Assembly: GCA_044229975.1 (NCBI GenBank)
Contig: JBGARZ010000009.1
Span: 219,947 to 283,946 of the forward strand
Direction of reading: 5' to 3'
DNA: 64,000 nucleotides
From: Polyangiales bacterium
Lineage (GTDB): Bacteria > Myxococcota_A > Polyangia > Polyangiales > Ga0077539
Shown: positions 1,149 through 61,905 of the stretch, one piece after another
Layout of the letters: every line of letters starts with the position of its first letter
Position numbering within the stretch: the stretch's first letter is position 1
The notes under the pieces: model-generated
What the model was told of the DNA's origin: nothing
Database searches by the model: none
Seen by the model: only the letters and a program-made list of their open reading frames with translations
Position numbers and translations under genes: made by a program

Positions 1149-1176
1149 CGCGAGTGCAAACCCCGTGGACCGTGGG

Positions 1177-1902: not shown

Positions 1903-2051
1903 GTCATCAACGGTCTCCCTCGGTAAGTCCTGTAATTCGCGTGTGTGGCATCGGGGGTGGCGGCAGTTCGACCTCCACGGGCACGACGTCCCGCTCGAAG
2001 TGCATGCGTCCCGACACCTTCATCGGCGCGCTCGCCCAGGAGTGACCTCCA

Positions 2052-23919: not shown

Positions 23920-23947
23920 CACAGGGTGAATGGTCGCATGCGGACGC

Positions 23948-38200: not shown

Positions 38201-38345
38201 GGAGGGTCTCGTAGACGGCGGAGACCTGGTGGGGCAGCGGATCGATGCGCGCGACGTGGACGGCGAGGCGCGGGTCGAAGAGCGCCGCGTGGAGGACGCG
38301 CCAGGACTCGAGGGCCAGTCGCACGGGGTCGGGGGTGGTTCCCAT
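35223..38345 (-). CDS. SNF2-family helicase (DrmD / MADS-helicase-like) with a long C-terminal extension
   Basis: LADDPGAGKT, DEAHRL, MSATPHDGS, helicase-C motifs FLVATDAAGEGINLQ and QRFGRVHRIGQ. 1040 aa. Confidence 0.8.
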   Translation of the reverse strand: MGTTPDPVRLALESWRVLHAALFDPRLAVHVARIDPLPHQVSAVYETLLVQRPLRFVLADDPGAGKTIMAGLLITEMRARGLLRNCVVVAPGSLVDQWRDELWTRFDLRFDLPTRTDLVRADEWFVEHPFAVVRLDQVARDPAFVARVAAVHWDLAVFDEAHRLSTGWNGQRLDPTQRFSFARRVAAEARDVLLMSATPHDGSEERFQAFLQLVDGDRFAGKFRDGVHTPRIDDLIHRRLKEDLVRFDGSALFPPRRAVTVNFALSPREKSLYESVTQYVRTEFDRAEATEGRGRTVGFALTVLQRRLASSPSAIHRSLSSRRAKLAARLAALRARSFRAEEESLSDDELESALDLPGAETEAEESALAEGATAARSIDELADEVDRLAELEVESRALLQAKVDCKRERVAELLTSAAMVDRLGRRRKLVVFTEHRDTLTYVADFLANLRGRAECVVTIDGSMDRAQRLAAQRAFADEEGTEFLVATDAAGEGINLQCASLVLNWDIPWSPARIEQRFGRVHRIGQTETCQLWNLVADGTRETEVFQALCRRLEEESKSLRGQVFDVLGAAFSERPLRDFLLDAVRGGRHEAARAGDAVGRQVDEAVTRQHEFSRRVDETAAREAAARQLRALRDDMDRAAGQQLGRACLEPWFVAALGSIQGRAFPRSEGRYAVNFTPPAWRAHDATLPQRPPPIGFDPLAGDEVVRLTAAHPWARALALAVARDALHTPAAYVDPFDGGSEPWWLVAVSQALTHGEGARLDEAAWLVAVRADGSVRPLAGPAHLDLRSTTDEERACLAAMDPALPARPDSLRAAIDEALLVPWRRAVRTRHEKAIDVIEREVMARLSAETQQAHRLKVEAQARGHHGAKKAQQQSELEKTLRGRMFERRAELAGLRAVAEGDVDIVAVVPVVPAGLVGGLALDGGRDEVAIAAVMRAEALRGRDLRDVRAQRAGWDLEAREPATGALRFWVVRGVPEGAASVTLRRSEAMALRHAPERVALVVVEVNDEGTTGIPVVLDGLAGAMPGFEEPVVVVALG

Positions 38346-40978: not shown

Positions 40979-41878
40979 TCAGGCCGCGCGCGAGAAGCGT
41001 TCGAAGCGTTGCGCGAGGAACTCTTCACGGGGCCGCACGCTCGACGGCCAGCGGACGCTCGCGCGGTCGAAGGGCTTGAGCGCTGCGTCGAGCACGGGCC
41101 CCGCACTCGGCGCCGCGGCGAGCGAGGGCGCGAGGTGGATGGTGCCCGCGTGCGAGACGCCCAGCAGGTCGAGGTCAAAGACGTCGCGGTGGAGGAGGCA
41201 GAGCGGGAGGGCGTTGTCCTCCTCGGGCGCTCCGCGGCGGGCGCCGTCAGGCCAGACCACCGAGGCGTCGAGGAGTGCCTGCGTTGAGAGCGAGCAGACG
41301 GCACAGCGATGCTCCCAGGCCGCGAGGGTGCGGTCGCGAAGGATGACGTGCTCCCAGCGGGGTTTGGCGACGACGGTGCGTCGGCGGAGTTCGGCGGTGG
41401 TGACGCGCGAGGCGAGGTCGTCGGCGGTACCGATGACGACCTCGGCGGTCAGCGCGCTCCGATCGATGCCGCTCGCATACGCCGGAAACAGGGCGAGGTA
41501 GCGGGCGGGTGCCACGCCAAAGAAGTAGATCATCGGCGCGTCGAGGCTCGCCGAGTATTCGAGTGCGTTGTTGTCGAAGGCGTCGGGATCGGTGCCCTGG
41601 AAGCGATAGACGAAGCCGCCCTCCACGGTGAGGTCGTCGTAGCGCGCGACTCGCCCCGCCTTCGGGATGGTCGACTTGATCGAGAGTGCGCCGGCGACCA
41701 TCTGCTTCGGCCGGAAGATGCCCCGCGCCCGATTGGCGAAGAGCACCCGCTCACCGCGGAACTGGAAGCCTTCCGCGATGACCTCCCACGGCAGGATCTC
41801 GCCGTATCGGCGGACCAGCGTGCGCAGTCCATCGAAGGCCGCGAGTCGAATCTCCAGATCGGGATCGGTGACGCTCAT
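40979..41878 (-). CDS. HNH endonuclease with an N-terminal uncharacterised (possibly modification-sensing) domain
   Basis: C-terminal HNH: HRCAVCS...WPDG...DNALPLCLLHRDVFD. Start chosen at MSVTDPD (41878); the upstream extension is in a GC-rich artefact frame. Confidence 0.55.
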   Translation of the reverse strand: MSVTDPDLEIRLAAFDGLRTLVRRYGEILPWEVIAEGFQFRGERVLFANRARGIFRPKQMVAGALSIKSTIPKAGRVARYDDLTVEGGFVYRFQGTDPDAFDNNALEYSASLDAPMIYFFGVAPARYLALFPAYASGIDRSALTAEVVIGTADDLASRVTTAELRRRTVVAKPRWEHVILRDRTLAAWEHRCAVCSLSTQALLDASVVWPDGARRGAPEEDNALPLCLLHRDVFDLDLLGVSHAGTIHLAPSLAAAPSAGPVLDAALKPFDRASVRWPSSVRPREEFLAQRFERFSRAA

Positions 41879-42114
41879 CGGACGCCAGGCTACCGGCGAG
41901 CAGGGCGACGTCAACGACTGGGCGGAAGGGTTGCGGTGCTGCCGGAGTACCGTGGCGATCTCGGTTCTCACTTCTCTCGACCTCGTCCGATGCGGCCGAG
42001 CCCACTGCCAATCGGTGGGCGAGATGTCAGATCGTTCACCGGAGGGGCGTCGAACCGGTGCTTTGTCCAAGAACACCGGTGGTGGGGCGCAGGCCCACCA
42101 AGGATGCTCGCCGC
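41879..42114. promoter_or_regulatory. Divergent intergenic region; likely promoter(s) for the minus-strand defence super-operon and the plus-strand enzyme cluster
   Basis: Only sizeable non-coding gap between the two oppositely oriented gene arrays. AAGGA is 10 nt upstream of the 42115 ATG. Confidence 0.35.
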
Positions 42115-44196
42115 ATGTCCAACTCGCTTCCACTGCCGCTCTCCCAGCAGATCATGGCGTGGCTCGTCCAGGCACTCGGTCTCGATACCGCGCCCTCGCG
42201 GAACCGCCGCCTGTCCTCCGGCACGCTCAAGGGTGCCCGGCTGGGCAAGATCATCGCGCGAAGCTGGCGCGATCTCGTGAAGGAAGTGACCGCGCTGCTC
42301 GGTCTTCCGCAGGTCGCACACGAACTGTGGCCGACTCTGCTCCGCCGTTGGGACGCCACCGTGAGCGCGATGCACGCTCCGGAGCTCGACCCTGGCGACG
42401 CGCTCCTCCCGGTGCTGCGCATGGCCGTCCCGCGGATCGGGATCCGACTGGGCGCGCTGGCCGCGCTCGCCTGCTCCGCGTCGGGAGCTTCGAAGGACCG
42501 ATGGGAGTGGCTCTGTGATCCCCTCGACCCGCACCTGCCGCGACGGGTGCTGGAGGGATTGCTCTCGGTGCATCGTCCCGAGTGGCGGACCTGGGAGCAG
42601 CGCTACGAAAAGCTCAGAGGCGCAGTCGACCAACGAACGATCGAGAGCTGGAACGCCGGGGCCATCCTGGGGCCCAAGGTCATCGCGAAGATCGCCGCAG
42701 CGGTGCACCCCAGAGTCGCAGCACCGCTCCGTTGGGCGCGGGCGGCGATGGTCTTGCGGCGCGACCTGGAAGAGTCGGTCGACGCCGCGGCGGTGGACTC
42801 CTGGCGGGACGCCGTCCGACAGGTCGCGTCCTCGACCCTGGCGACCCTCATGGATCCGATGGCGGTGTCCCGCGTCGCCGAACTCTGGACCGAAGAGATC
42901 GCCCACGCGAGCGGTCCAGAGGTCACGGTCCTCCTCGCCAACCTTGCACAGATGGCCGGCGTCGAAACGCGTGCGGACGACACGGCTCCGTGGCTCGAGC
43001 GAGCCGCAGCAGCGAAGTTCAGCGATCGCTCCCCGAGGCGGGCGGAGACCCATGCCGTACTCCTGCTGACGATCCTGCAGCCGCACGCCCGACTCGTCAG
43101 CGCGGCGATCGGACGCGACAACTCCCAGAACGCGGAGGCGCTGGCCTCGGCGGATCTCGGGCGCTGGCTGATGGGCGAGTGGGAGCTTCTGTCGATGCTC
43201 CGTCGCCTCGCGCGAGGGAAGCCGATCGCGTTGCAGCTTGACGGTCGCCTCAGGACGACCGGCCCGGTCCCCGACGAGGTGCGCGACGCCGCAACGATGG
43301 AGCTCGAGCGGGCGGCCCGTTTCGTCCAGAGTCGAGAAGACGTCGCACGGTCGGACGAGGCCGAGAGCACCGTGTTCTCCTTCCTCTTCGACGGAAACGG
43401 CGATGCGTACCGGGCGGCGCGCTCCGCCTCGATGTTGGAGTTTCCGCTCGCGGTGATCGATCGAGGCGTGGAGCGCTCGATGTCGGAAGAAGACGTGCGC
43501 GCGATCCCCGAACTCGCCTGCGCGCGGGCGCGTCGGCTGGCGGAGGGCGGCGATGTTATCGCCGCGATGGCCATGCTCGAATCTGTAGGCGTCCATGATC
43601 ATCTCCCGGATCGGTCGGCGCGACGCGATCTCTCTCGGGCACTGATCGCGGTCGCGCACGCGCAACTGGACCAACACTACGAGAGTGTTCGAGAGTGGCT
43701 GGAGGTAAGGGCGTCGTTCATCGTCGGGGATGACGCGCTGGCGATCGGTGACGCGCTCATGGCGCTCGCCGACCAGATCGTCTCCGCACTCTCCGCGCTG
43801 AGTTCACTGCACGACTCCGCGGCCTTCATGCTCGCCCTACCCGGTGTTGCCGAGCCACCCATCGACTCCTTTGTGATGTCCTTCCCGTTTGCCCTGCGAT
43901 GCGAAGGCGTCTTTCGAGCACTCGACCGCGAGAGCACGCTGCGGCCCGACTCGCGGACCTCCGCGGCGGTGCTTGCTTCTTGGGCAGAGAAGAACCCGAA
44001 CGACGGCGAAGTGGCCGCGCTCCTCGCCGTCTGGGCTCGATTCAACGGCAGCTCTCCGGCGACGCAAGCCAAGGCCGACAAGGGCTGTGAGCACCTCGGC
44101 ACCGCGCCGCTGCGTGACCAATGGATCAATCGCCTCAAGCGCGACCTCTCTTTGATGATGAACGCCGGTTCTGGGCTGAAGGCGGGGGAGGCATGA
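42115..44196 (+). CDS. Hypothetical alpha-helical protein (693 aa), first gene of the plus-strand cluster
   Basis: ATG with an upstream AAGGA. High GC3. No recognisable domain. Confidence 0.5.
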   Translation: MSNSLPLPLSQQIMAWLVQALGLDTAPSRNRRLSSGTLKGARLGKIIARSWRDLVKEVTALLGLPQVAHELWPTLLRRWDATVSAMHAPELDPGDALLPVLRMAVPRIGIRLGALAALACSASGASKDRWEWLCDPLDPHLPRRVLEGLLSVHRPEWRTWEQRYEKLRGAVDQRTIESWNAGAILGPKVIAKIAAAVHPRVAAPLRWARAAMVLRRDLEESVDAAAVDSWRDAVRQVASSTLATLMDPMAVSRVAELWTEEIAHASGPEVTVLLANLAQMAGVETRADDTAPWLERAAAAKFSDRSPRRAETHAVLLLTILQPHARLVSAAIGRDNSQNAEALASADLGRWLMGEWELLSMLRRLARGKPIALQLDGRLRTTGPVPDEVRDAATMELERAARFVQSREDVARSDEAESTVFSFLFDGNGDAYRAARSASMLEFPLAVIDRGVERSMSEEDVRAIPELACARARRLAEGGDVIAAMAMLESVGVHDHLPDRSARRDLSRALIAVAHAQLDQHYESVREWLEVRASFIVGDDALAIGDALMALADQIVSALSALSSLHDSAAFMLALPGVAEPPIDSFVMSFPFALRCEGVFRALDRESTLRPDSRTSAAVLASWAEKNPNDGEVAALLAVWARFNGSSPATQAKADKGCEHLGTAPLRDQWINRLKRDLSLMMNAGSGLKAGEA

Positions 44197-44218
44197 CGTC
44201 CGTGGAGGTCACTCATCC

Positions 44219-44542
44219 ATGGAACATCCCGATTCATCAGCACCCCAGGCCCGCGCGGGCCGCGTCGCCGTCTTCGGTGGAGACGCCCGACAGAAGCGCC
44301 GCTTCCAACACCTCGGCGAGGTCGCCTTCTACCCGGCCGCGGAGTGCGGTGGCCCCCACCACGCGCAGCGGCTCATCGATTCGATCCGGCATGGCGGTGT
44401 CGTGCGGGTCTTCATTCTCGCGCGGTGGAACGGCCACAGCACATCGGGCCGTGTCCGCGACGTCGCCCGACGACACGGCGTTCCCGTGACGATTCTCACG
44501 GGGGTACAGGCTCCCCGCATCGACGCTTCGAAGAAGGGATGA
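44219..44542 (+). CDS. Small conserved hypothetical protein (107 aa; DUF2325-like fold suspected)
   Basis: RVAVFGGDARQ...VRVFILARWNGHS...GVPVTILTG. GC3-biased. Confidence 0.4.
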   Translation: MEHPDSSAPQARAGRVAVFGGDARQKRRFQHLGEVAFYPAAECGGPHHAQRLIDSIRHGGVVRVFILARWNGHSTSGRVRDVARRHGVPVTILTGVQAPRIDASKKG

Positions 44543-44547
44543 CACGC

Positions 44548-44793
44548 ATGACCAGGCAGATTCTCATTGCGGGGTCGTGCGGCCTCGTCGAACGCGCTCG
44601 GCCCCCCTCGCTCACCGCCACGGGCTACGCCGTAGGTGGTTTCGACGTGGCGCCGCCGCGCACCTACGACGTCGCGCGCTTCGTGGGCAACCCGTCGCAC
44701 GCCCTCGACCGGCTCGACTGGCGCCCGACGACTCCGCTGTCCGAGAGCCTCGACCGACTGATCACGACGTTCCGCGAGGAGGGATCCCAATGA
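44548..44793 (+). CDS. Micro-ORF resembling the fused N- and C-termini of an NAD-dependent epimerase/dehydratase; gene remnant or small coupled ORF
   Basis: MTRQILIAGSCG resembles the Rossmann N-terminus; YDVARFVGNPSHALDRLDWRPTTPLSESLDRLITTF resembles the epimerase C-terminal tail. Stop overlaps the next ATG (ATGA). RBS AAGGGA. Confidence 0.3.
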   Translation: MTRQILIAGSCGLVERARPPSLTATGYAVGGFDVAPPRTYDVARFVGNPSHALDRLDWRPTTPLSESLDRLITTFREEGSQ

Positions 44794-47144
44794 AGGTGCT
44801 CCAGGTCATCCACGGCTACCCCATGCGCTACAACGCCGGGTCCGAGGTTTACACGCAGACTCTCTGTCACGGCCTCTCCGACGCAGGCCACGAGGTGCAC
44901 GTCTTCACCCGCGAGGAGGACTCTTTCGCCGAAGACTTCGCGATTCACCGCGAGCGCGACGCCGACGATTCGCGCGTAGCGCTCCACGTCATCAACAACC
45001 CGCGCAGCCGCGACCGCTACCGTCACGCCGGCATCGATGCCCGCTTTGTCGAGGTGCTCGAATCCCTCCGCCCCGACGTGGTGCACATCGGGCACCTCAA
45101 CCATCTGTCGACCTCGATCGTGCGCGAGGCAGCGGCCCGCGGTGTTCCGGTGGTGTTCACGCTGCACGACTACTGGGTGATGTGCCCGCGCGGACAGTTC
45201 ATGCAGATGCACCCCGCCGACGGAGGCGAACTCTGGGCCGCCTGCGACGGGCAGCAGGATCGCAAGTGCGCCGAGCGTTGCTACGCGCGCTACTTCTCGG
45301 GTGCCTCCGACGAGTACGAGGAGGACGTCCGCCACTGGGAGCGCTGGGTCGCGCGCCGGATGCAGGACCTCCGCGAGGTCGCCGATCTCGTCGATCTGTT
45401 CATCGCTCCGACCCGCTACCTCCACGACCGCTACCGCGACGAGTTCGGTCTGCCCGAGCGCAAGCTGGCTCATCTCGACTACGGCTTCGACCTCGCGCGA
45501 TTGCGCGGAAGACAGCGCCAACCCGGCGAGCCCTTCACCTTCGGCTACATCGGGACGCACATCCCGGCCAAAGGGATCCACCAGCTCATCGCGGCCTTCG
45601 GCGACGTGCGAGGCGACGTGCGTCTCCGCATCTGGGGGCGCCCGCGCGGGCAGGACACCGAAGCCCTGCGAGCGTTGGCGGCGGCGCTCCCCGGCGACGC
45701 GGCGAGCCGGGTCGAGTGGACCTCGGAGTATCGCAATCAGGACATCGTCGCCGAGGTCTTCGATCGGGTCGACGCCATCGTGGTCCCTTCGATCTGGGTC
45801 GAAAACTCGCCTCTCGTCATCCACGAGGCCCAGCAGTCGCGCGTGCCGGTCATCACCGCCGACGTCGGCGGGATGGCGGAGCTCGTTCACCACGAGGTCA
45901 ACGGCCTCCTCTTCGAACATCGCAACCCGCGAGCGCTCGCCGCGGCCATGCAGCGCCTGGCGGACGACCCCGCCCTCGCCCGCGAGCTCGGCGCGCACGG
46001 CTACGTCCATTCGAAGGACGGCGACGTGCCCGACCTGAACGAGCACGTCCGCGCGATCGAGGGGCTCTATCGTCGCGTGATCGCGCAGCGCGAATCGACC
46101 CGCGTGACGCACGCGGCGGGGCCGTGGCGCATCACCTTCGATACCAACCCCGATACCTGCAATATGAAGTGCGCGATGTGCGAGGAGCACTCGCCACACA
46201 GCCTGTCGCAGCTCGGGCGGAAGAAGGAGGCGCAGCCGCGGCGGGTGATGCCGATCGAACTGCTCGAGCGCATCGTCGTCGAGGCCGCGCCCAAAGGGCT
46301 GCGCGAGGTGATCCCTTCGACGATGGGTGAGCCACTGTTCTACGAGCACTTCGAGCGGATCATCGGGGTCTGCAAGGCCCATGGGGTGATGCTCAACCTC
46401 ACGACCAACGGCTCCTTCCCCCGGCTCGGCGCGCGGGCGTGGGCCGAGCGGCTCGTGCCCATTACCTCCGACATCAAGGTCTCCTGGAACGGCGCCACGA
46501 AGCACACCCACGAGGCGGTGATGATCGGCTCCAACTGGGAGCAGTGCCTGGCCAACGTCCGCACGCTCATCGAGGTGCGCGACGCCCACGCGGCGGCGGG
46601 CGGCAACCGCTGCCGCGTGACCTTCCAGATGACCTTCCTTGAGACCAACGTGGGCGAGCTCGCGGACATCGTCCGTCTCGCGGCGAAGTTGGGAGTCGAT
46701 CGACTCAAGGGACACCACCTCTGGGCGCACTTCGGGGAGATCGAGTCGCTCTCGATGCGACGCGACCTCGGGTCCATCCGCCGATGGAACGACGCCGTCC
46801 GCGACGCCCAGGCGGCCGCGCGCTCCGACCGCCTGCCCGATGGGCGCGAGGTGCTCCTGGAGAACATCTTCCCCCTCGCTGAGGACGCCACGCAAGATCT
46901 CGCGCCGGGCGGCCCGTGTCCCTTCCTCGGTCAGGAGGCATGGGTCAGCGCGCTCGGTCGCTTCGACCCGTGCTGTGCGCCCGACGCCCAGCGACGGACG
47001 CTCGGCGAGTTCGGATCGCTTCATGATCAGAGTCTCAACGCGGTCTGGCAGTCGGAGCCCTACCGCAAACTTGTCGCGACCTACCGCAACCGCGCTCTCT
47101 GCCTCTCCTGCAACATGCGCCGACCGGCCGCGGAGTCCCGATGA
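44790..47144 (+). CDS. Fusion protein: GT4-family glycosyltransferase (GT-B) plus radical SAM domain with a SPASM-like C-terminus
   Basis: GT4: EAQQSRVPVITADVGGMAELVHHEVNGLLFE. Radical SAM: CNMKCAMCEE (CxxxCxxC). Auxiliary Cys motifs: CPFLGQEAW, RFDPCCAPD, CLSCN. Strong RBS GAGGAGGG before the ATG at 44790. Confidence 0.7.
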   Translation: MKVLQVIHGYPMRYNAGSEVYTQTLCHGLSDAGHEVHVFTREEDSFAEDFAIHRERDADDSRVALHVINNPRSRDRYRHAGIDARFVEVLESLRPDVVHIGHLNHLSTSIVREAAARGVPVVFTLHDYWVMCPRGQFMQMHPADGGELWAACDGQQDRKCAERCYARYFSGASDEYEEDVRHWERWVARRMQDLREVADLVDLFIAPTRYLHDRYRDEFGLPERKLAHLDYGFDLARLRGRQRQPGEPFTFGYIGTHIPAKGIHQLIAAFGDVRGDVRLRIWGRPRGQDTEALRALAAALPGDAASRVEWTSEYRNQDIVAEVFDRVDAIVVPSIWVENSPLVIHEAQQSRVPVITADVGGMAELVHHEVNGLLFEHRNPRALAAAMQRLADDPALARELGAHGYVHSKDGDVPDLNEHVRAIEGLYRRVIAQRESTRVTHAAGPWRITFDTNPDTCNMKCAMCEEHSPHSLSQLGRKKEAQPRRVMPIELLERIVVEAAPKGLREVIPSTMGEPLFYEHFERIIGVCKAHGVMLNLTTNGSFPRLGARAWAERLVPITSDIKVSWNGATKHTHEAVMIGSNWEQCLANVRTLIEVRDAHAAAGGNRCRVTFQMTFLETNVGELADIVRLAAKLGVDRLKGHHLWAHFGEIESLSMRRDLGSIRRWNDAVRDAQAAARSDRLPDGREVLLENIFPLAEDATQDLAPGGPCPFLGQEAWVSALGRFDPCCAPDAQRRTLGEFGSLHDQSLNAVWQSEPYRKLVATYRNRALCLSCNMRRPAAESR

Positions 47145-48409
47145 GCTGGCGCGGCTTACTTCCCTCCGCCGACGGGACTCATCACGTCCGCGCGGGCGTC
47201 CCGGCCTACGCGGATCGCTTCGATGAGGTGCTGAAGTTCCATGAGCCCGGCCTCGCTCCGGTGCGGCGCGGCGCGGCGGCGTGGCACATCGACCCGGCTG
47301 GCGTGGCCGCGTACGTCCGTCGCTTCCAGCGCACCTTTGGCTTCTACGAAGGGCTCGCGGCGGTCGAGTCCGGCGACGGCTGGCACCACGTCGCCCCCGA
47401 TGGTGCCAACGCCTTCGATCAACGCTTCGCGTGGTGCGGCAACTTCCAGGGCGGACGGGCGACGGTGCGCGCGCGCGACGGGCGCTACCACCACATCCTC
47501 CCCGACGGCAGGCCCTGCTATGCCGAGCGCTGGTGCTACGCGGGTGACTACCGTGACGACGTCGCGGTGGTGAAGCGCCACGACGGGCTCGCCACCCACA
47601 TCGACCTGAACGGCCGTGCCTTGCACGACCGCTGGTTCGTCGACCTCGACGTGTTCCACAAGGGGCACGCAAGGGCCCGCGACCGCGAGGGCTGGTTCCA
47701 CATCGACGCCCGCGGCGAGGCCCTTTATGGACGGCGTTTCGCGAGCGTCGAACCCTTCTACAACGAGCAGGCCTTCGCAGAACTCCACGACGGCAGCCAG
47801 GCGGTCATCGGCCACGACGGGGTCGGCCTCGTGCAGGTGTCGGCGCCCTGGTCGGGAGGGCGCGCTCCGGGCGGGCGCACAGGCGGGCGACGCCTGCTGC
47901 TCGTGGGGCTTGCCGCCGCGGGCAAGACGACGGTCGGCCGCGCGCTCGCGGCACGTTGGGGCGTCGAGCTGGTGAGCCTCGACGACTGCCGACGACGCTG
48001 GGGCGATGGGACGACGGCGGGCGACCACCTCGCGCGGGCTATGTTCCTGCGCACCTGCGCGACCCTCGACGCCGGAGTGTTCGAGACCTCTGGCGCGGGC
48101 CCGTATCGACACGCTACGCGCGCAGCGCTGGCCGAGCGCCGAGGGCCACTCGTGGTCTGCTGGCTCGACGCGCCCGCCAACGTCCGCCGCGCGCGCCGCG
48201 ATGCGCCCCCGCGCGACATCCCCCATCCCCCGGCGGCGACGGGCGGGTGGAGCGAGGCCGACGCCGAGGCCGCGCTGACCGACGACATCGCGCACGGGTG
48301 GTGGACGCTGCTCGATGATTGGCGAGCGCATCGGGTCGACGCGACGGTCCCGGCCGATGAGCTCGCGTCAACAATCGACGCGCTGGTGTCAGGAACCCGG
48401 GACCCGTGA
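47141..48409 (+). CDS. WG-repeat domain protein fused to a P-loop kinase (AAA_33-like)
   Basis: Six repeats of the WHxDxxG type (WHIDPAG, WHHVAPDG, YHHILPDG, ATHIDLNG, WFHIDARG, IGHDGVG). Then LLLVGLAAAGKTTVGRALA. ATG overlaps the upstream stop. Confidence 0.6.
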   Translation: MSWRGLLPSADGTHHVRAGVPAYADRFDEVLKFHEPGLAPVRRGAAAWHIDPAGVAAYVRRFQRTFGFYEGLAAVESGDGWHHVAPDGANAFDQRFAWCGNFQGGRATVRARDGRYHHILPDGRPCYAERWCYAGDYRDDVAVVKRHDGLATHIDLNGRALHDRWFVDLDVFHKGHARARDREGWFHIDARGEALYGRRFASVEPFYNEQAFAELHDGSQAVIGHDGVGLVQVSAPWSGGRAPGGRTGGRRLLLVGLAAAGKTTVGRALAARWGVELVSLDDCRRRWGDGTTAGDHLARAMFLRTCATLDAGVFETSGAGPYRHATRAALAERRGPLVVCWLDAPANVRRARRDAPPRDIPHPPAATGGWSEADAEAALTDDIAHGWWTLLDDWRAHRVDATVPADELASTIDALVSGTRDP

Positions 48410-49251
48410 GCGTCTTCCCTGACGTGAACCCCGAGTCGGTGCTGCTGGTTACGCTCGACTCGTGCCGCTACGACACCGCGGCGTTGGCCGACACGCCCAC
48501 GCTCCGCACGCTGGGCGAACCCCTACGGGCGATGGCACCGTCGTACTTCACCCTCGCGTCGCACGCGGCCATCTGGGTCGGCGCGACGCCGGGCGTCCCC
48601 GGGCTCCGCGCGCCGTGGCTCAACCCAAAGTGGCGTCGGCTCTTCCGCCTGGAGACGGGCTCTATCAAGGCGCGCGACGACGAGGCCTTCGCGCTGCCCG
48701 GGCGCACGATCATCGACGGCTTCAACCGGCTCGGGTACGCGACGATCGGAACCGGTGCGGTCGACTGGTTCGACCCGCAGACGGCGGCGGGGCGATCGCT
48801 CTGCGAGGACTTCTCGGAGTTCCATTACGTCCGAGGCGAGGGCGCGAATCGGCAGGTCGCGTGGCTCGCCGATCGGGCGCGCGCGGCCGGAGGGCGGCCG
48901 GTGTTCGCCTTCCTGAACGCTGGTGAGACGCACGTCCCGTACTGGCACGAGGGCGCGACGTGGCCCCGCGACGACAACCCCTGCGTGCCCTTCGGCGAGG
49001 CGAACCGACGCGCCGACTGCGAGTCGCGACAGCGTGCGTGCCTGGAGCACGTCGACCGTGCGCTCGCCCCGTTGCTCGACGCGTACCGCAACGCGACGGT
49101 GCTGGTCACCGCCGACCACGGCGACTGCTGGGGCGAGGACGGCCTCTGGGAGCACGGCGTCTGGCACGCCAAGGCGATGGAGGTCCCGCTATGGCTGCGC
49201 GTGCGCGGCCGGGTCGTGCGCGACGATCGGCGCGCAACGCCGGAGATCTGA
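48406..49251 (+). CDS. Alkaline-phosphatase-superfamily metalloenzyme (phosphodiesterase/NPP- or phosphomutase-like)
   Basis: LLVTLDSCRYD and VLVTADHGDCWGEDGLWEHG. GTG start overlapping the upstream stop (GTGA). Confidence 0.55.
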   Translation: MSVFPDVNPESVLLVTLDSCRYDTAALADTPTLRTLGEPLRAMAPSYFTLASHAAIWVGATPGVPGLRAPWLNPKWRRLFRLETGSIKARDDEAFALPGRTIIDGFNRLGYATIGTGAVDWFDPQTAAGRSLCEDFSEFHYVRGEGANRQVAWLADRARAAGGRPVFAFLNAGETHVPYWHEGATWPRDDNPCVPFGEANRRADCESRQRACLEHVDRALAPLLDAYRNATVLVTADHGDCWGEDGLWEHGVWHAKAMEVPLWLRVRGRVVRDDRRATPEI

Positions 49252-49294
49252 AGAGCGAGCGCTGGTGCGCGAGGGGAGAGGGAGCCAGGGAGTC

Positions 49295-49969
49295 ATGGGA
49301 GAAGATCGGTCGTATCCACCCGGGGAGATCCCCGCGTCGTTGGTCGATAGCTGGGCGCTGGTGCCGGAGGGCGTCCACGCGGCGCTCTTCATGCGGCACT
49401 CGTATCGACCATCGATCCCGCGAGAAGGTCCCGACGAGGTCGACCTCACCGAGGAGGGCGTGCGGCTGGCGCGAGAGCTGGGCGCCCTATTCCGCTCGCG
49501 CCCGGTGGGCCGACTGCTCGCGAGCAAGGTGCCGCGCTGCATGACGACGGCACGCGCGCTCGCCGAGGGTGCAGGCTGGTCGGCCGAGCCCGTCGTGGAC
49601 GAGCGACTGCGAAACCCGTGGACCGCCGATGAGGCGGGCAAGCGGCTCGCACACGGCTACTGGAGCACGCGCCCGCGCACGATCGACGCGCTTCGGCTCG
49701 CGATGGCGGAGGGTATCCCCGGCTGGAGGCCCTTCGGCGAGGCCGTGGCGGTGATGGTCGACGCGATGATCGAGGCGCCCGTCCCCGGCGCGCTCGACGT
49801 GCTCGTGACACACGACCTGATGGTGGGTGCCGTCGTCGAGTGGCTGCTGCGGCCCGGACTCGAGCGGGTGCCGCGCTTCCTGGAAGGTGTGTTCGTATGG
49901 AAGACCGGGTCCGGCATCGCGGTCGCCTGGCGCGGCGAGACACGGGAGCTGCCGTGGCCTCCGCGCTGA
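49295..49969 (+). CDS. Histidine phosphatase (phosphoglycerate-mutase-like) family protein
   Basis: ALFMRHSYR (RHG-type) and LVTHDLMVG. RBS GGGAG before the ATG. Confidence 0.55.
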   Translation: MGEDRSYPPGEIPASLVDSWALVPEGVHAALFMRHSYRPSIPREGPDEVDLTEEGVRLARELGALFRSRPVGRLLASKVPRCMTTARALAEGAGWSAEPVVDERLRNPWTADEAGKRLAHGYWSTRPRTIDALRLAMAEGIPGWRPFGEAVAVMVDAMIEAPVPGALDVLVTHDLMVGAVVEWLLRPGLERVPRFLEGVFVWKTGSGIAVAWRGETRELPWPPR

Positions 49970-50613
49970 GCGAGGAGGCCGTCGCACGTTGCGGCGAGGC
50001 GCTGATCGGTGAGGCGCTGGGGCGGGACTTCGACGGCGAGGTCTTCCTCGCGGGCGGGGCGTTCCGTACCCTGCTGACCGGCGAGGCTCCGCGCGACCTC
50101 GACCTTTGGGCGCCCGACGAGGCCAACCGCACCGCGCTCATCGCGTGGCTCGCTCGGCGCGGCGCGACGATCGAGCGGGACCACCCGCCGTTCCAAACGA
50201 TGTTCCGCTGCGGTCACCATCGGGTCGACGTTCCCTATGCGTTGGGAACCACGCGCCTGGCCGACCGGCTCGCGCGCTTCGACCTGGGGCTCTCGGCGGT
50301 CGGAGTCAGTTGGCGGGACGGGCGCATCGTCGAAGCGGTCATCGACCCGTGCGCAGTGCGCTCTGTCGAGGCGCGGGCGGTGCTCGTACTTCGCCCACTG
50401 CGCAACGCCTCGTACCTGCTCAACACCGTCGAGCGAGCGCGCCGCTACGCGCGTGAACTGGGCTTTGCGCTCCCTGACGCCGAGGAGGAGTTTCTCTGGG
50501 AGACCTACGCGTCGATGCCGCGCGACCGTCGCGAGAAGGTCCTCGCCAACTTCACCTGGGCCGGAGGCGCGGACGGGCAGATTGCCGCCCACGCACGAGA
50601 GCTGGTTGGGTGA
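49897..50613 (+). CDS. Minimal nucleotidyltransferase-like protein (pol-beta/CCA-head fold)
   Basis: FLAGGAFRTLLTGEAPRDLDLWAPD matches the GG..R..L.G....D.D NTase signature. Start uncertain (ATG 49897 or GTG about 49950). Confidence 0.4.
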   Translation: MEDRVRHRGRLARRDTGAAVASALSEEAVARCGEALIGEALGRDFDGEVFLAGGAFRTLLTGEAPRDLDLWAPDEANRTALIAWLARRGATIERDHPPFQTMFRCGHHRVDVPYALGTTRLADRLARFDLGLSAVGVSWRDGRIVEAVIDPCAVRSVEARAVLVLRPLRNASYLLNTVERARRYARELGFALPDAEEEFLWETYASMPRDRREKVLANFTWAGGADGQIAAHARELVG

Positions 50614-50668: not shown

Positions 50669-52486
50669 TCAAGATGAGAACGGCAGGGCGAGAAACCGCC
50701 CGAGCATCGCGGGCGCATCGAGCGCCAGCGCCCGTTTGATGGCGTCGACTGCTACACGTTCAAGCGGCGCTGCGGTTCGCCCGTGGGCGACGGCATTGCG
50801 AACCTCCACCAGGCTGAAAGGTGCCCCCGACACTGGCGCGATCGACCTCGCCGCGCCCGCGACCGAAGCGAGGGCGTCGAGCGTCGGCCCGTCGACCACT
50901 TTATCGATGCACGCGCGCGCCGCGCCCGGCCTGCTCACCAACTCCATCACCTGCAGCAGCGTACTGAGCGTCGGTTCCTTCGTGGGCTTCAGGAGGAGGG
51001 CCCACTCGCCCTTCGGCTTGAAGGCGTGGACGTTGTCCTCGGCGACCTTGCGCAGGGGCGTGAGGACACGCTCTCGCAGCTCGCGCTCAAGCGTGATCGC
51101 CAGTAGATGAGCGCTGCGCCCGAGATCATCGACGGCGCCGTGATAGGTGATCTCCGAGCGCACGAGGTCGGTTTGTGATTCGGGATGCAAGCTCCCGAAG
51201 GCGTCCCCCAGGATCAGCGCCCAGCGTCGCTGGGACTGCTCGCGGAGCCGGTCGTGCCATCGCCAGGGATCCACCGCGGCCGACGTCGCGAGGGGTCTGA
51301 CATCGGCGCCGAGGATGCCCTCGATCCTGACGAAGAGCGCGTCGAACGTCTCCCGCTCAGCCGCGTCGCGCGGCAGCAAATACGCCTCGGCCTGCAGCTC
51401 GTTCGCCAGGGAACGCAGTTGCTCGACCCACGCCCCTGCCATGCCGCGCACGCGATCGTTCTTGAGGCCCGCGATGACCTCGACCCGTCGCCCCGTGGCC
51501 CGCTCCAGATACCAGAGCGCCTCGCCGTGGAGACCTGCGTCGGCGCAGACCCTCGCGCGCAGCTGATACAGCTTGGGGGTCAGCACCGGATGGTCCAGCG
51601 CCTCAGCCATCGGGCTCACTTCGCCGAGTACGGCGTGCGCCTCCGCGATGCGACCGCGGCCTCGATAGAACTCGGCGCGCCTCATCGCGATGCGCACGCG
51701 GACCTTCCGATCGTCGCCCGCGTCACTCTCGGCCCACGCCGCAGCGAGCGCCTCTTCTGCTTCCTTGGAGTGTCGTTCGATGTCCTTCGGATCTCCGCCC
51801 ACCGTACGTCCGAGGCGCGCGATCGCCAGCTCAGCGCGATGCTTCTGCGCGCTGCATCGACGGCGGCGGTCGTCGAGCACCGCGCCGGCTTTCAGCTCGT
51901 CGTCGAAGCGCCACGCCGCCCCGTCGAGGTCGCCCCGGAGCAGCGCCGCCCGGCCTGCGAGGGCGCGAGCGTTGGCCAGGCGCCGCGGATCCCCGACGTT
52001 CTCCAGCAACTCCTCGTAGCGCGCGTAGCAGTCATCAGCGCTGGCCCTCTGATCGAGCTCATCGAAGAGCGCTCCGAGGTTCCCCAACAGTCGAGCGCGC
52101 ACCCCGACGAGCGCAGGCCCGACCGCATCGCGCAACGCCTCGCGGAACAGGTCGTACGCCTCATCGTGGCGACCGAGGTCCCGGAGCGTCGCGCCGAGGT
52201 GGTTGCTCACCGCGAGCCGTAGCTCCTTGTCGTCGGACTGACGTGCAAGGTCGAGTGCTCGTCGGAAGTAAACCTCCGAGCGGGCCAGGGCAGCCGCTCC
52301 ACCGGCGCGATAGCAGGACAATCCGACGAAGCGCTGGCAGACCGCCTCCGCGCTTGTGTCGCCGCTCTCCTCCGCGAGTGCGAGCGCCCGCTCGTTGCAC
52401 GCGAGCGCCGCCGTCCAGTCCTGGCGCAGATACGCTTCCTTCCCTCGCGCCAGGTGTGCCTCGACCTCGCCCGCCGCGGTCGCCAT
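50669..52486 (-). CDS. TPR-repeat protein (605 aa)
   Basis: Repeated TPR-like helical hairpins in the N-terminal half (AYDLFREAL, CYARYEELL, and similar). Coupled to an upstream small ORF. Confidence 0.55.
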   Translation of the reverse strand: MATAAGEVEAHLARGKEAYLRQDWTAALACNERALALAEESGDTSAEAVCQRFVGLSCYRAGGAAALARSEVYFRRALDLARQSDDKELRLAVSNHLGATLRDLGRHDEAYDLFREALRDAVGPALVGVRARLLGNLGALFDELDQRASADDCYARYEELLENVGDPRRLANARALAGRAALLRGDLDGAAWRFDDELKAGAVLDDRRRRCSAQKHRAELAIARLGRTVGGDPKDIERHSKEAEEALAAAWAESDAGDDRKVRVRIAMRRAEFYRGRGRIAEAHAVLGEVSPMAEALDHPVLTPKLYQLRARVCADAGLHGEALWYLERATGRRVEVIAGLKNDRVRGMAGAWVEQLRSLANELQAEAYLLPRDAAERETFDALFVRIEGILGADVRPLATSAAVDPWRWHDRLREQSQRRWALILGDAFGSLHPESQTDLVRSEITYHGAVDDLGRSAHLLAITLERELRERVLTPLRKVAEDNVHAFKPKGEWALLLKPTKEPTLSTLLQVMELVSRPGAARACIDKVVDGPTLDALASVAGAARSIAPVSGAPFSLVEVRNAVAHGRTAAPLERVAVDAIKRALALDAPAMLGRFLALPFSS

Positions 52487-61894: not shown

Positions 61895-61905
61895 GCTACA
61901 CCGGC
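61832..61905 (-). tRNA. tRNA-Met(CAT): tRNA with anticodon CAT (elongator Met or Ile2/lysidine type)
   Basis: Minus strand: GCCGGTG-TA-GCTC-AGCTGGTTA-GAGC-A-GGGGA-ATCATAA-TCCTC-AGGTC-GTTGG-TTCAAGT-CCGAC-CGCCGGT-A, then CC. Clean cloverleaf, U33, A37. T-arm resembles tRNA-Ile2. Confidence 0.8.

What the first reader, a model, noticed from the sequence alone, without database searches (positions are those of the whole stretch)
42115..50613. Eight-gene plus-strand cluster with a GT4-radical SAM/SPASM fusion and nucleotide-handling enzymes, divergent from the defence operon
The genes are tightly coupled by ATGA/GTGA overlaps. The set is: a 693-aa unknown, a small conserved protein, an epimerase-remnant micro-ORF, a glycosyltransferase fused to a radical SAM enzyme with extra Cys clusters, a WG-repeat-P-loop kinase, an alkaline-phosphatase-superfamily enzyme, a histidine phosphatase and a minimal nucleotidyltransferase. 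The kinase, phosphatase and NTase combination suggests synthesis or modification of a nucleotide, a nucleotide-sugar or a glycosylated small molecule or peptide. Its placement directly beside a defence island and its divergent promoter arrangement hint at a defence-associated (for example DNA or nucleotide glycosylation or signalling) function rather than cell-wall biosynthesis. I do not recognise this gene set as a described pathway.
Basis: inference. Interest (0 to 1): 0.75.

Follow-up and report, generated by a model that had tools for sequence, protein, structure and literature searches.

The report
Mobile sugar-modifying radical SAM operon
This stretch holds a myxobacterial variant of a widespread, horizontally mobile operon, built around a glycosyltransferase fused to a radical SAM enzyme, that most likely makes a still-unknown modified sugar compound; its core is already described, without a function, as part of the Wolbachia phage WO "Undecim Cluster", and nothing shows it to be an anti-phage defence system.

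Summary

**Core.** The conserved core is the GT4-radical SAM fusion (D, 44790-47144) plus a WG-repeat partner (N-terminal half of E). The two were linked in 74 of 74 assessable species genomes, from Myxococcota to Rickettsia/Wolbachia, Bacteroidota, Planctomycetota, Cyanobacteria and Heimdallarchaeota.

**Frequent companions.**
- an SDR epimerase/dehydratase, which here is an in-frame deletion remnant
- a histidine phosphatase (G)
- a CCA-enzyme-like nucleotidyltransferase (H)

**Rare or local parts.**
- The P-loop kinase half of E and the alkaline-phosphatase-type hydrolase F form a rare module that replaces the usual O-methyltransferase.
- A and B occur only in close relatives.

**Supporting evidence.**
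- Eukaryotic giant proteins fuse these domains with a sugar kinase, an NDP-sugar pyrophosphorylase or a carbamoyltransferase.
- The "SPASM" region is a BtrN-type twitch domain with one auxiliary cluster.
- SDR, D and WG correspond to UC2-UC4 of the Wolbachia prophage WO Undecim Cluster (50% identity for D), whose function is unknown.

**Verdict.** Small-molecule glycoside biosynthesis with lineage-specific tailoring. The defence reading rests only on local neighbourhood.

The parts
42115..44196 (+). Gene A: 693-aa all-alpha protein of unknown function. It is a lineage-specific neighbour, not part of the widely conserved operon.
   Evidence: No Pfam, NCBIfam or PADLOC hit. Only 18 homologues among 5.8 billion protein clusters. 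AlphaFold model has pLDDT 84.6 and is a helical solenoid with no PDB fold match at E<0.1. Absent next to the operon in L007-L009 and in 64/64 other genomes. A 28%-identical homologue again lies beside the operon in L094.
44219..44542 (+). Gene B: 107-aa small protein, lineage-specific.
   Evidence: No HMM hit. Found only in L003-L006 at 64-84% identity. 0/64 in other genomes. Not homologous to the small ORFs that follow distant A homologues.
44539..44793 (+). Gene C: 84-aa in-frame deletion remnant of the operon's NAD-dependent SDR epimerase/dehydratase (UC2 equivalent).
   Evidence: Alignment to intact 300-308-aa orthologues from L003, L004, L007 and L090 shows only the Rossmann start and the last ~60 residues retained. 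An intact SDR sits at -900 nt in 44/74 genomes.
44790..47144 (+). Gene D: GT4 glycosyltransferase fused to a radical SAM enzyme with a twitch domain (UC3/WD0613 equivalent). This is the core enzyme.
   Evidence: Pfam hits. At least 70% identical over full length in more than 120 clusters. At least 598 loci in species genomes. 50% identity over 99% of its length to Wolbachia phage WO.
45183..45281 (+). Invariant four-cysteine insert in the GT4 N-terminal half (C132, C152, C160, C164). Probably a metal or Fe-S site.
   Evidence: Invariant in 9 fusions at 35-73% identity to the window protein. Coordinates.
45801..45827 (+). GT4 EX7E catalytic motif (E338...E346).
   Evidence: Invariant in alignment A1. 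Coordinates.
46158..46181 (+). Radical SAM CX3CX2C cluster motif (C457, C461, C464).
   Evidence: Invariant in alignment A1. Coordinates.
46917..47111 (+). Twitch-type auxiliary-cluster domain (C710, C728, C771, C774, plus C729).
   Evidence: All four cysteines align to BtrN C169, C188, C232 and C235. BtrN is the best PDB hit for this segment, E 0.013. The later CX5CX3C part of a full SPASM motif is absent.
47141..47854 (+). Gene E, N-terminal WG-repeat domain (UC4 N-terminal equivalent). It is the universal partner of D.
   Evidence: Found in 74/74 genomes, directly adjacent in 65. Occurs standalone at ~240 aa, or fused to OMT, P-loop kinase, protein-kinase/APH fold, class II aldolase or His-phosphatase+NTase.
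47855..48409 (+). Gene E, C-terminal P-loop small-molecule kinase domain (Walker A GLAAAGKTT at 47906-47932). It replaces the usual O-methyltransferase.
   Evidence: AAA_33/SKI hits. Shikimate kinase is the best PDB hit, E 0.0025. Kinase variant in 4/70 genomes plus the window lineage.
48406..49251 (+). Gene F: alkaline-phosphatase-superfamily hydrolase related to the STM4013/SEN3800 family. It travels with the kinase variant.
   Evidence: NCBIfam NF038075 at 122 bits, below the 250-bit cut-off. Motifs D18, T49, H176 and D237-H238 are present. Outside the lineage it is found only in Planctomycetota L040, at 61% identity and together with the kinase.
49295..49969 (+). Gene G: histidine phosphatase (branch 1).
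   Evidence: His_Phos_1 at 1.7e-10. RH and a second His are present. Found in 29/65 genomes by HMM. Fused to H, or to WG+H, in several genomes and to a carbamoyltransferase-GT-rSAM protein in a choanoflagellate.
49954..50613 (+). Gene H: truncated class II (CCA-adding/poly(A) polymerase-like) nucleotidyltransferase, head and neck only.
   Evidence: Profile A2 against PDB gives E about 1e-3 with GG...DxD and RxD..S motifs aligned. Found in 11/65 genomes. Fused to G in L010, L015, L016, L024, L025 and L094.
50669..52486 (-). Convergent TPR protein. A syntenic neighbour in the close lineage only.
   Evidence: TPR_12 hit. 54-74% identity at the same position in L003, L004, L007 and L009. 1/58 elsewhere.
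41880..42114 (.). Divergent intergenic region between the HNH gene of the defence operon and gene A.
   Evidence: Sequence read. No sigma-70 consensus. No Rfam match.

Best explanation
Genes C-H are one variant of a widespread, horizontally mobile biosynthetic operon whose invariant core is a bifunctional enzyme (D) plus a WG-repeat partner protein.

**Proposed sequence of steps (inferred)**
1. An NDP-sugar is supplied or reshaped by the SDR. In relatives a sugar kinase plus pyrophosphorylase, or UDP-glucose dehydrogenase, supplies it.
2. The retaining GT4 domain of D transfers the sugar to a phosphorylated small acceptor.
3. The fused radical SAM/twitch domain abstracts a hydrogen from the sugar or cyclitol part. 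This would oxidise, dehydrate, epimerise or rearrange it, as BtrN, DesII and BlsE do.
4. The WG-repeat protein delivers a tailoring activity. That is usually O-methylation; here it is phosphorylation by a shikimate-kinase-like domain, with the alkaline-phosphatase-type hydrolase F acting on the resulting phosphoester.
5. The histidine phosphatase G removes the acceptor's phosphate, following the logic of sucrose-phosphate synthase followed by its phosphatase.
6. The CCA-like nucleotidyltransferase H nucleotidylates a hydroxyl of the product or an intermediate.

**Shown**
- gene content
- conservation
- fusions
- motifs

**Inferred**
- the substrate, the order of steps and the product

**In this genome**
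- The SDR gene is destroyed by an in-frame deletion. The pathway either depends on an SDR encoded elsewhere or is impaired.
- A, B and the TPR gene are lineage-specific neighbours.
For: **Conservation**
- The GT-rSAM fusion is 46-77% identical across at least 15 phyla-level groups.
- Neighbouring genes in the 80 species genomes: WG partner 74/74, O-methyltransferase 51/70, SDR 44/74, histidine phosphatase 29/65, H 11/65.

**Fusions that link the parts**
- P0127 is WG-OMT-GalU-like pyrophosphorylase-GHMP kinase-GT4-rSAM.
- Chromera Cvel_1502 has a similar architecture.
- Stephanoeca P0129 is His-phosphatase-carbamoyltransferase-GT4-rSAM-WG.
- L094 fuses WG, His-phosphatase and H.

**Interchangeable tailoring modules on one scaffold, as in natural-product clusters**
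- O-methyltransferase
- P-loop kinase
- APH/protein-kinase fold
- class II aldolase
- carbamoyltransferase
- extra radical SAM enzymes
- PhyH dioxygenase plus ABC exporter plus PLP aldolases

**Nearest relatives of the domains**
- The solved relatives of the GT domain use phospho-sugar or inositol-phosphate acceptors: sucrose-phosphate synthase, MshA, GlgM.
- The four auxiliary-cluster cysteines align one-to-one with the BtrN twitch.
- Sugar- or nucleotide-acting radical SAM enzymes (viperin, BlsE, DesII) are among the top fold matches.

**No sign of a RiPP or regulatory RNA**
- There is no precursor-sized conserved ORF and no RRE domain.
- No riboswitch was found.
Against: - No product, substrate or activity is known for any member.
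- The radical SAM model is only moderate (pLDDT 67.8). Its fold matches also include peptide maturases (SkfB, SuiB, PqqE), so a protein or peptide substrate is not excluded.
- The BtrN match is weak statistically (E 0.013).
- G and H are absent from about half or more of the loci, so the steps assigned to them cannot be universal.
- The SDR is deleted here.
- The authors of the Undecim Cluster favoured exopolysaccharide/LPS roles (PMC9203015).
Confidence: 0.6

Rival explanations
1. Cell-envelope glycan modification. The operon would build or decorate an exopolysaccharide, LPS or another surface glycoconjugate, as proposed from annotation for the Wolbachia Undecim Cluster.
For: - GT4, SDR epimerase/dehydratase, UDP-glucose 6-dehydrogenase and a GlmU-like gene are typical of polysaccharide loci.
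- The Undecim Cluster authors assign UC1-UC3 and UC10 to EPS/LPS precursors.
Against: - Only one GT is present.
- No initiating phosphoglycosyltransferase, flippase, polymerase or chain-length gene occurs in the window or in any of the annotated contexts.
- All the proteins look cytosolic.
- The module is fused with sugar-activating enzymes in protists.
- The tailoring set (kinase, His phosphatase, NTase, carbamoyltransferase) and the ABC exporter fit a small molecule better.
Confidence: 0.13
2. Defence or conflict function. The operon would make a modified nucleotide or sugar-nucleotide antiviral, or glycosylate DNA/RNA, and would work with the neighbouring defence island.
For: **Neighbourhood**
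- In this lineage the operon always borders variable defence genes: Hma/GmrSD-kinase here, SNF2+PLD, dynamin-like and BREX-like genes in relatives.
- Defence genes also flank it in L001, L091 and L094.

**Mobility**
- It rides on prophage WO and on plasmids.
- It may lie within a tRNA-Met/integrase island.

**Sequence hints**
- Viperins are among the top fold matches.
- PF20706 GT4-conflict hit at 48 bits.
- The kinase/phosphatase/NTase set could act on nucleotides.
Against: - E-H have no PADLOC match beyond a marginal VakA hit on the P-loop of E (E 0.0045). D has only weak generic radical SAM hits to pVip, 25.6 bits.
- Only a few of the 80 species loci carry homologues of the ten defence-type query proteins tested.
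- D is 46-77% identical across phyla, which is unlike the rapid divergence I would expect of defence proteins (expectation from general knowledge).
- The eukaryotic fusions carry free-sugar activation enzymes.
- Only 5 full-length copies were found in 2.9 million viral contigs.
- The generic GT4 families score higher than GT4-conflict (93 vs 48 bits).
Confidence: 0.12
3. Protein or peptide modification. D would glycosylate and radically cross-link or oxidise a protein substrate, possibly the WG-repeat protein itself.
For: - Peptide maturases (SkfB, SuiB, PqqE, anSME) are among the best sequence and fold matches of the radical SAM core.
- The WG protein is the one invariant neighbour, and it can be standalone.
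Against: - There is no short precursor gene and no RRE/PqqD-like domain.
- The auxiliary domain is a single-cluster twitch of the BtrN kind, not the two-cluster SPASM typical of peptide maturases.
- The WG domain is fused to small-molecule enzymes such as OMT, shikimate-kinase-like and class II aldolase domains.
Confidence: 0.1

Closest known systems
Undecim Cluster of Wolbachia prophage WO (UC1-UC11, WD0611-WD0621; Bordenstein & Bordenstein 2022, PMC9203015)
   Same: - The UC2 SDR, UC3 GT-radical SAM fusion and UC4 WG-repeat protein lie in the same order and on the same strand.
- D is 50% identical to UC3 over 99% of its length.
- The WG domain is about 43% identical and the SDR about 38% identical.
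- Both are mobile between unrelated bacteria.
   Different: - The window lacks UC1 and UC5-UC11: the GlmU-like gene, PhyH dioxygenase, ABC exporter, two PLP aldolases, the G3P transporter, UDP-glucose dehydrogenase and UC11, which the paper groups under methylation.
- It has instead a P-loop kinase in place of the OMT half of UC4, an alkaline-phosphatase-type hydrolase, a histidine phosphatase and a CCA-like NTase.
- Its SDR is a deletion remnant.
- The Undecim Cluster itself has no known function.
BtrN (butirosin 2-deoxy-scyllo-inosamine dehydrogenase), the twitch-domain radical SAM enzyme
   Same: - Same radical SAM core, followed by a single auxiliary [4Fe-4S] domain.
- All four BtrN ligand cysteines align with invariant cysteines of D at nearly the same spacing.
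- BtrN acts on a carbohydrate-like small molecule.
   Different: - Similarity is weak (E 0.013) and confined to the twitch segment.
- D is fused to a GT4 and carries an extra Cys4 insert.
- The substrate and reaction type are unknown.
Tunicamycin cluster gene set (TunA SDR, TunB radical SAM, TunD GT, TunG phosphatase, TunH pyrophosphatase; PMC6105854)
   Same: - Same combination of enzyme classes in a translationally coupled operon: SDR, radical SAM, GT, a ~200-aa phosphatase and a pyrophosphatase/phosphodiesterase-type hydrolase.
- TunA (3vps) is a PDB hit of the intact SDR at 4e-21.
   Different: - TunA is only the fifth-best hit.
- TunB and TunD could not be compared because no sequences were available to the tools.
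- There is no acyltransferase, deacetylase or ACP here.
- The resemblance is by enzyme class and comes partly from memory.
Synthase-phosphatase pairs for small glycosides (sucrose-phosphate synthase/SPP, MshA/MshA2, GpgS/GpgP)
   Same: - The GT4 domain's best solved relatives are sucrose-phosphate synthase 6kih (1e-12) and MshA 3c48 (2e-8).
- A dedicated phosphatase is encoded alongside.
- The mycobacterial GpgP being a histidine phosphatase is from my own knowledge.
   Different: - Those pathways have no radical SAM step, no WG-repeat partner and no NTase.
- Similarity is at GT4 family level only.
STM4011-STM4015 cassette (NCBIfam STM4013/SEN3800 family hydrolase)
   Same: - F is related to the STM4013 family (2e-35).
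- Going by the NCBIfam names as I recall them, that cassette also includes radical SAM proteins.
   Different: - F scores 122 bits against a cut-off of 250, so it is not a member.
- No STM4011, STM4012, STM4014 or STM4015 matches were found for the other proteins.
- The cassette is itself uncharacterised.

Membership tests
Radical SAM superfamily | CX3CX2C motif binding the SAM-cleaving [4Fe-4S] cluster, in a partial TIM barrel | tested here: met
   C457, C461 and C464 are invariant in 9 diverse fusions. PF04055 scores 43 bits against a cut-off of 29.5. Foldseek matches radical SAM structures at probability 1.0.
SPASM domain (two auxiliary clusters) | Seven-cysteine motif CX9-15GX4C ... CX2CX5CX3C ... 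C | tested here: not met
   Only C710-x12-G-x4-C728(C729) and C771-x2-C774 are conserved, and the CX5CX3C part is absent. The four cysteines align to the BtrN twitch ligands. Pfam SPASM does score above its cut-off (33.7 vs 21.5), so the domain is homologous but of the shorter twitch kind.
GT4 retaining glycosyltransferases (GT-B) | Two Rossmann-like halves with the EX7E motif in the C-terminal half | tested here: met
   Glyco_trans_1_4 at 93 bits, Glycos_transf_1 at 90.5 bits and Glyco_transf_4 at 74 bits. E338-x7-E346 is invariant.
PF20706 GT4-conflict (effector of NTP-dependent conflict systems, PMC7159879) | Best match to this family, and a position as effector within vWA-MoxR or related ternary conflict systems | tested here: not met
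   48 bits, above the cut-off of 26 but well below the generic GT4 families at 93 bits. No vWA, MoxR or other partner of those systems is adjacent.
Wolbachia Undecim Cluster | Contiguous UC1-UC11 gene set associated with prophage WO | tested here: not met
   Only UC2 (as a remnant), UC3 and the N-terminal half of UC4 have counterparts. UC1 and UC5-UC11 are absent. The window shares the core module and is not a member of the eleven-gene island.
Prokaryotic viperin (pVip) defence | Full-length match to viperin models, including the C-terminal nucleotide-binding extension | tested here: not met
   PADLOC pVip scores 25.6 bits over profile positions 9-150 of 257 only. NCBIfam viperin_w_prok is not among the listed hits of D or its radical SAM domain. 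The C-terminal domain is a Cys-rich twitch instead.
Known anti-phage defence systems (PADLOC-DB 2.0) | Any component protein matching a defence-system model | tested here: not met
   A, B, F, G and H have no hits. E has a marginal VakA P-loop hit (E 0.0045). D has only the weak pVip hits.
RiPP biosynthetic cluster | A precursor peptide gene and a RiPP recognition element next to the radical SAM maturase | tested here: not met
   The gaps between genes are at most 43 nt, or the genes overlap. No conserved small ORF occurs across loci. No PqqD/RRE domain was found.
STM4013/SEN3800 family hydrolase (NF038075) | Score at or above the curated cut-off of 250 bits | tested here: not met
   F scores 122.3 bits. 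It is related within the alkaline-phosphatase superfamily but is not a member.
Tunicamycin-type nucleoside pathway | Orthologues of TunA (5,6-dehydratase), TunB and TunD | not testable with these tools
   TunA 3vps is a hit of the intact SDR but only ranks fifth. No TunB or TunD sequence could be obtained from the available collections.
Class II (CCA-adding/poly(A) polymerase) nucleotidyltransferases | Head domain with GGxxR/K...DxD and the RRD-type motif | tested here: inconclusive
   The profile of H homologues matches poly(A) polymerase 4wby and CCA enzymes at E 9e-4 to 3e-3, with the motifs aligned. G34-G35, D48, D50 and D110 are invariant. No Pfam family reaches significance. The body and tail domains are absent.

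The most novel reading that the evidence does not exclude
The GT4-twitch radical SAM enzyme with its WG-repeat partner would be the scaffold-forming machinery for an undescribed class of radical-tailored glycosides, for example a keto-, deoxy- or carbocyclic sugar derivative.

- These compounds would serve as chemical weapons or signals between organisms.
- That would explain why the module travels on prophage WO, on endosymbiont plasmids and in genomic islands next to defence systems.
- It would also explain why the tailoring enzymes are swapped between close relatives.
- In this myxobacterium the kinase, alkaline-phosphatase hydrolase, His phosphatase and NTase could form a pro-drug or self-protection cycle, analogous to streptomycin 6-phosphate and StrK.
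Probability: 0.2. Interest if true: 0.85.

Novelty: new variant of a known kind. Interest (0 to 1): 0.55.

Why it matters
**What the comparison shows**
- The three-gene core of the Wolbachia Undecim Cluster is highly expressed, is transferred between insect symbionts and is duplicated in an obligate strain. No function is known for it.
- That core is not a symbiont peculiarity. It is one instance of a module found in hundreds of free-living bacteria, in Heimdallarchaeota bins and, as giant fusion proteins, in protists.
- The fusions and the swappable tailoring genes narrow the function to a modified glycoside.

**What it makes testable**
- There are culturable sources in which to find the product, including myxobacteria, Halomonas, Azospira, Flavobacterium and Sorangium.
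- If a product is found, it would name a new radical SAM sugar chemistry.
- It would also give the Wolbachia field a concrete hypothesis for a long-unexplained island.

**This window**
- It is a decayed variant, so it matters mainly as the lead that exposes the family.

Tried and rejected
1. **Actinomycete origin.** I assumed this from the 70% GC content. Homologues show a myxobacterium.
2. **STM4011-4015 cassette.** Only F is related, and it scores below the cut-off. The literature is silent on the cassette.
3. **GT4-conflict or Aravind-type conflict system.** The hit is cross-family and the partner genes are missing.
4. **General link to SNF2 helicases or GmrSD.** These are seen in the window lineage, Sorangium and WO, but only a few of the 80 species loci have such neighbours.
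5. **Polyangium neighbours.** The TPR gene and the small upstream ORF in Polyangium are not homologues of the window's TPR and B.
6. **Riboswitch as a clue to the ligand.** None was found in the window or in six diverse loci.
7. **Fold of A.** The model is confident, but it gives only generic helical-repeat matches at E>0.1.
8. **Fold search with the radical SAM domain.** It does not discriminate between peptide-acting and sugar-acting enzymes.
9. **PDB sequence search for F.** No hits.
10. **att repeat for the tRNA-Met/integrase island.** None was found inside the window.
11. **Literature searches for the fusion under Rickettsia/aminoglycoside terms.** No results.
12. **Promoter and terminator scan.** Nothing above chance.

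Full report
**Observation**

The window is about 70% G+C, so I called genes from third-position GC. Eight plus-strand ORFs fill 42115-50613:

| Gene | Coordinates | Length |
|---|---|---|
| A | 42115-44196 | 693 aa |
| B | 44219-44542 | 107 aa |
| C | 44539-44793 | 84 aa |
| D | 44790-47144 | 784 aa |
| E | 47141-48409 | 422 aa |
| F | 48406-49251 | 281 aa |
| G | 49295-49969 | 224 aa |
| H | 49954-50613 | 219 aa |

B/C, C/D and D/E overlap by ATGA. E/F overlaps by GTGA and G/H by 16 nt.

- D is a GT4 glycosyltransferase plus Radical_SAM plus SPASM.
- E is WG_beta_rep plus a P-loop kinase.
- F is in the alkaline-phosphatase superfamily. Its closest NCBIfam family is STM4013/SEN3800, at 122 bits against a cut-off of 250.
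- G is His_Phos_1.
- A, B, C and H have no hit on their own.

The upstream minus-strand genes are defence genes: HNH, a GmrSD_N-protein kinase fusion, and HmaA at 1e-255. Further left are HmaC, an RdrB-like gene, a GajB-like gene and others.

**Which genes belong together**

The best homologues of D are myxobacterial, and more than 120 protein clusters share at least 70% identity over the full 784 residues. Close relatives gave these contexts:
- **86% identity (L004-L006):** the same order A, B, intact 300-aa SDR, D, E, F, G, H, then a convergent TPR gene. A different SNF2/PLD-like set lies upstream.
- **79% identity (L007-L009):** SDR-D-E-F-G-H-TPR, but no A or B. BREX-like genes take their place.
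- **91% identity (L003):** A, B, SDR and D are kept. The tail is WG-repeat+class II aldolase, His phosphatase, carbamoyltransferase and two more radical SAM genes.
- **Sorangium and Polyangium:** only D followed by a WG-repeat+O-methyltransferase protein.

The first ~235 residues of E align with that protein's N-terminus; the full local alignment (356 columns) is 46% identical.

A scan of one genome per species found at least 598 loci. The 80 best range from 46 to 77% identity. They come from Myxococcota, Alpha-, Beta- and Gammaproteobacteria, Desulfobacterota, Nitrospinae, Planctomycetota, Verrucomicrobia, Cyanobacteria, Chloroflexia, Bacteroidota, Rickettsia, Wolbachia, Midichloriaceae and Heimdallarchaeota bins.

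I searched these loci with a panel of the window's proteins and the alternative tail proteins:

| Neighbour of D | Genomes with it / assessable |
|---|---|
| WG domain | 74/74 (directly adjacent in 65) |
| O-methyltransferase | 51/70 |
| SDR, immediately upstream | 44/74 |
| G-type histidine phosphatase | 29/65 |
| H | 11/65 |
| Kinase domain of E | 4/70 |
| Carbamoyltransferase | 2/65 |
| F | 1/65 |
| TPR | 1/58 |
| A | 0/64 |
| B | 0/64 |

- A universal pair: D plus the WG domain.
- Frequent companions: SDR, OMT, His phosphatase and H.
- A rare kinase+F module. Outside this lineage it recurs in a Planctomycetota genome, with F at 61% identity.
- Lineage-specific neighbours: A, B and TPR.

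C is an in-frame deletion remnant of the SDR that has lost the catalytic region.

**Fusions**

A search of 50%-identity cluster representatives found 1353 clusters at E<1e-30. They include split GT and radical SAM versions and giant fusion proteins. The informative architectures are:
- **P0127:** WG-OMT-GalU-like NDP-sugar pyrophosphorylase-GHMP kinase-GT4-radical SAM.
- **Chromera velia Cvel_1502:** a similar architecture.
- **A Stephanoeca (choanoflagellate) protein:** His phosphatase-carbamoyltransferase-GT4-radical SAM-WG.
- **Bacteria:** G and H are fused in several genomes, and L094 has WG+His phosphatase+H in one 684-aa protein.
- **WG domain:** it also occurs alone at about 240 aa, fused to a protein-kinase/APH fold, or fused to a class II aldolase.

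These fusions tie the parts into one pathway that begins with sugar activation.

**Anatomy of D**

In nine fusions at 35-73% identity to the window protein, the invariant features are:
- the GT4 EX7E motif (E338, E346)
- a four-cysteine insert in the GT N-terminal half (C132, C152, C160, C164)
- the radical SAM CX3CX2C motif (C457, C461, C464)
- C-terminal cysteines C710, C728, C729, C771 and C774

The C-terminal pattern is the first part of a SPASM motif without the second cluster's CX5CX3C. A profile of this segment finds BtrN as the best PDB match (E 0.013). All four BtrN auxiliary-cluster cysteines (169, 188, 232, 235) align with C710, C728, C771 and C774.

The GT half is closest to sucrose-phosphate synthase, MshA, PimB and GlgM among solved structures.

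An AlphaFold model of the radical SAM half is moderate (pLDDT 67.8). It matches SkfB, viperin, SuiB, PqqE, BlsE, DesII and anSME about equally well, so it does not discriminate.

**The other proteins**

- **H:** a profile of its homologues aligns with class II CCA-adding enzymes and poly(A) polymerases over the head and neck, with the GG...DxD and RxD motifs conserved. "Minimal nucleotidyltransferase" is reasonable but only weakly supported.
- **Kinase half of E:** its best solved match is shikimate kinase.
- **F:** it keeps the metal and nucleophile motifs of the alkaline-phosphatase superfamily.
- **G:** it keeps the RH motif and the second histidine.
- **A:**
  - It has only 18 homologues in 5.8 billion clusters.
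  - It models confidently as a helical solenoid but has no fold match.
  - A 28%-identical homologue lies beside a divergently oriented copy of the operon and a GmrSD gene in L094. A 39%-identical one has no operon nearby.
  - Its role is open.

**What is already known**

The literature search led to the Undecim Cluster of Wolbachia prophage WO (WD0611-WD0621). There, UC3/WD0613 is described as a glycosyltransferase-radical SAM fusion (PMC9203015).
- D is 50% identical over 99% of its length to the WO copy, and to copies on Rickettsia and Arsenophonus plasmids.
- The WO and Rickettsia loci read: GlmU-like (WO only), SDR, GT-radical SAM, WG protein, PhyH dioxygenase, ABC exporter, two PLP aldolases. 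In WO these are followed by a G3P transporter and UDP-glucose dehydrogenase.
- The cluster's function was inferred from annotation only, and was still called unknown in December 2025 (PMC12801941).

The window therefore shares the UC2-UC4 core but has a different tail.

**Defence or not**

For a defence reading:
- The operon borders variable defence genes in all close relatives, and also in L001, L091 and L094.
- It travels on a prophage and on plasmids.
- It may lie in an island bounded by an integrase and tRNA-Met at 60.7-61.9 kb.

Against:
- None of E-H matches a PADLOC model convincingly, and D only weakly and generically.
- Few of the 80 species loci have homologues of the ten defence-type query proteins I tested.
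- D is unusually conserved across phyla.
- Protist fusions include free-sugar activation enzymes.
- Only five full-length copies occur in 2.9 million viral contigs.

The simplest reading is that the operon is accessory island cargo that often sits beside other island cargo.

**Mechanism proposed**

The steps below are inferred; the parts themselves are shown by the evidence above.
1. An NDP-sugar is reshaped by the SDR, or supplied by a kinase plus pyrophosphorylase or a dehydrogenase in relatives.
2. The GT4 domain transfers it to a phosphorylated acceptor.
3. The fused radical SAM/twitch domain modifies the sugar by hydrogen abstraction.
4. The WG protein brings a tailoring step. This is methylation in most genomes. 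Here it is phosphorylation, with F acting on the phosphoester.
5. G removes the acceptor phosphate.
6. H nucleotidylates a hydroxyl.

The product is unknown. In this genome the SDR is deleted, so the pathway may be impaired or may depend on another SDR.

**Verdict**

- The system is a new variant (kinase plus alkaline-phosphatase-type hydrolase in place of O-methyltransferase) of a described but functionally unknown module.
- Interest is moderate to good. The window's copy is ordinary within its family, but the family itself is a widespread, unexplained radical SAM sugar pathway with culturable hosts.

Noticed in passing
window 6930-42133 (minus strand): A stacked defence island on the minus strand:
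- 2095-aa DEAD/Helicase_C/MZB helicase (6930-13217)
- GajB/UvrD-like helicase (12728-15220)
- DruD-like protein (14827-15831)
- HmaC with HEPN_Swt1+DUF499 (18055-21399)
- RdrB-like protein (24529-27144)
- DUF1156 methylase (30896-33757)
- HmaA (35223-38345)
- GmrSD_N fused to a Ser/Thr protein kinase (38373-40946)
- HNH protein (40979 to about 41879)
   Followed up: partly
window 60695-61905: A tyrosine integrase gene (60695-61894, +) abuts, and by its ORF end overlaps, a tRNA-Met gene (61830-61905, -). The region to its left, including the operon and the defence genes, may be one integrated island. No att-like repeat of the tRNA was found inside the window.
   Followed up: partly
window 1-2000, 22001-24000, 28001-30000: Patches of lower G+C (0.59-0.63 against about 0.70), which may mark separately acquired segments within the island.
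   Followed up: no
window 45183-45281 (D residues 132-164): An invariant Cys-x19-Cys-x7-Cys-x3-Cys insert inside the GT4 N-terminal half, conserved in fusions down to 35% identity. It could bind zinc or a further iron-sulfur cluster. I do not know of this in other GT4 enzymes.
   Followed up: partly
L079 10070-12337 (Heimdallarchaeota bin): Here the GT and radical SAM halves are two adjacent ORFs rather than a fusion. The locus carries SDR, WG, carbamoyltransferase, His phosphatase and a second radical SAM/SPASM. It also has a methyltransferase fused to a Pol-beta NTase of a different family from H, which suggests the NTase role is filled by a non-homologous enzyme. Contamination of the bin was not checked.
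   Followed up: partly
L094 10001-16006 and L093 10001-12397: Distant homologues of gene A (28-39% identity) are each followed by a small Cys-rich ORF of 55-59 aa, unrelated to B. In L094 there is also an 1182-aa GmrSD_N protein and a UDG-family protein. A may belong to an undescribed island-borne gene pair rather than to the sugar operon.
   Followed up: partly
L092 12346-13890: In this metagenomic relative the WG-repeat domain is fused to a eukaryotic-type protein kinase/APH fold instead of the P-loop kinase. Phosphorylation as the tailoring step therefore appears to have arisen twice, with unrelated kinase folds.
   Followed up: no
window 40979-42133 (minus-strand ORF): The long HNH ORF overlaps the start of gene A only because of an upstream GTG. 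tblastn hits of its N-terminus in L003 and L004 are antisense to gene A, and an ATG at 41877-41879 is the more likely start.
   Followed up: partly
L055 22095-22172 (Hormoscilla): A group II intron domain 5 match lies about 10 kb downstream of the operon in this cyanobacterial locus.
   Followed up: no
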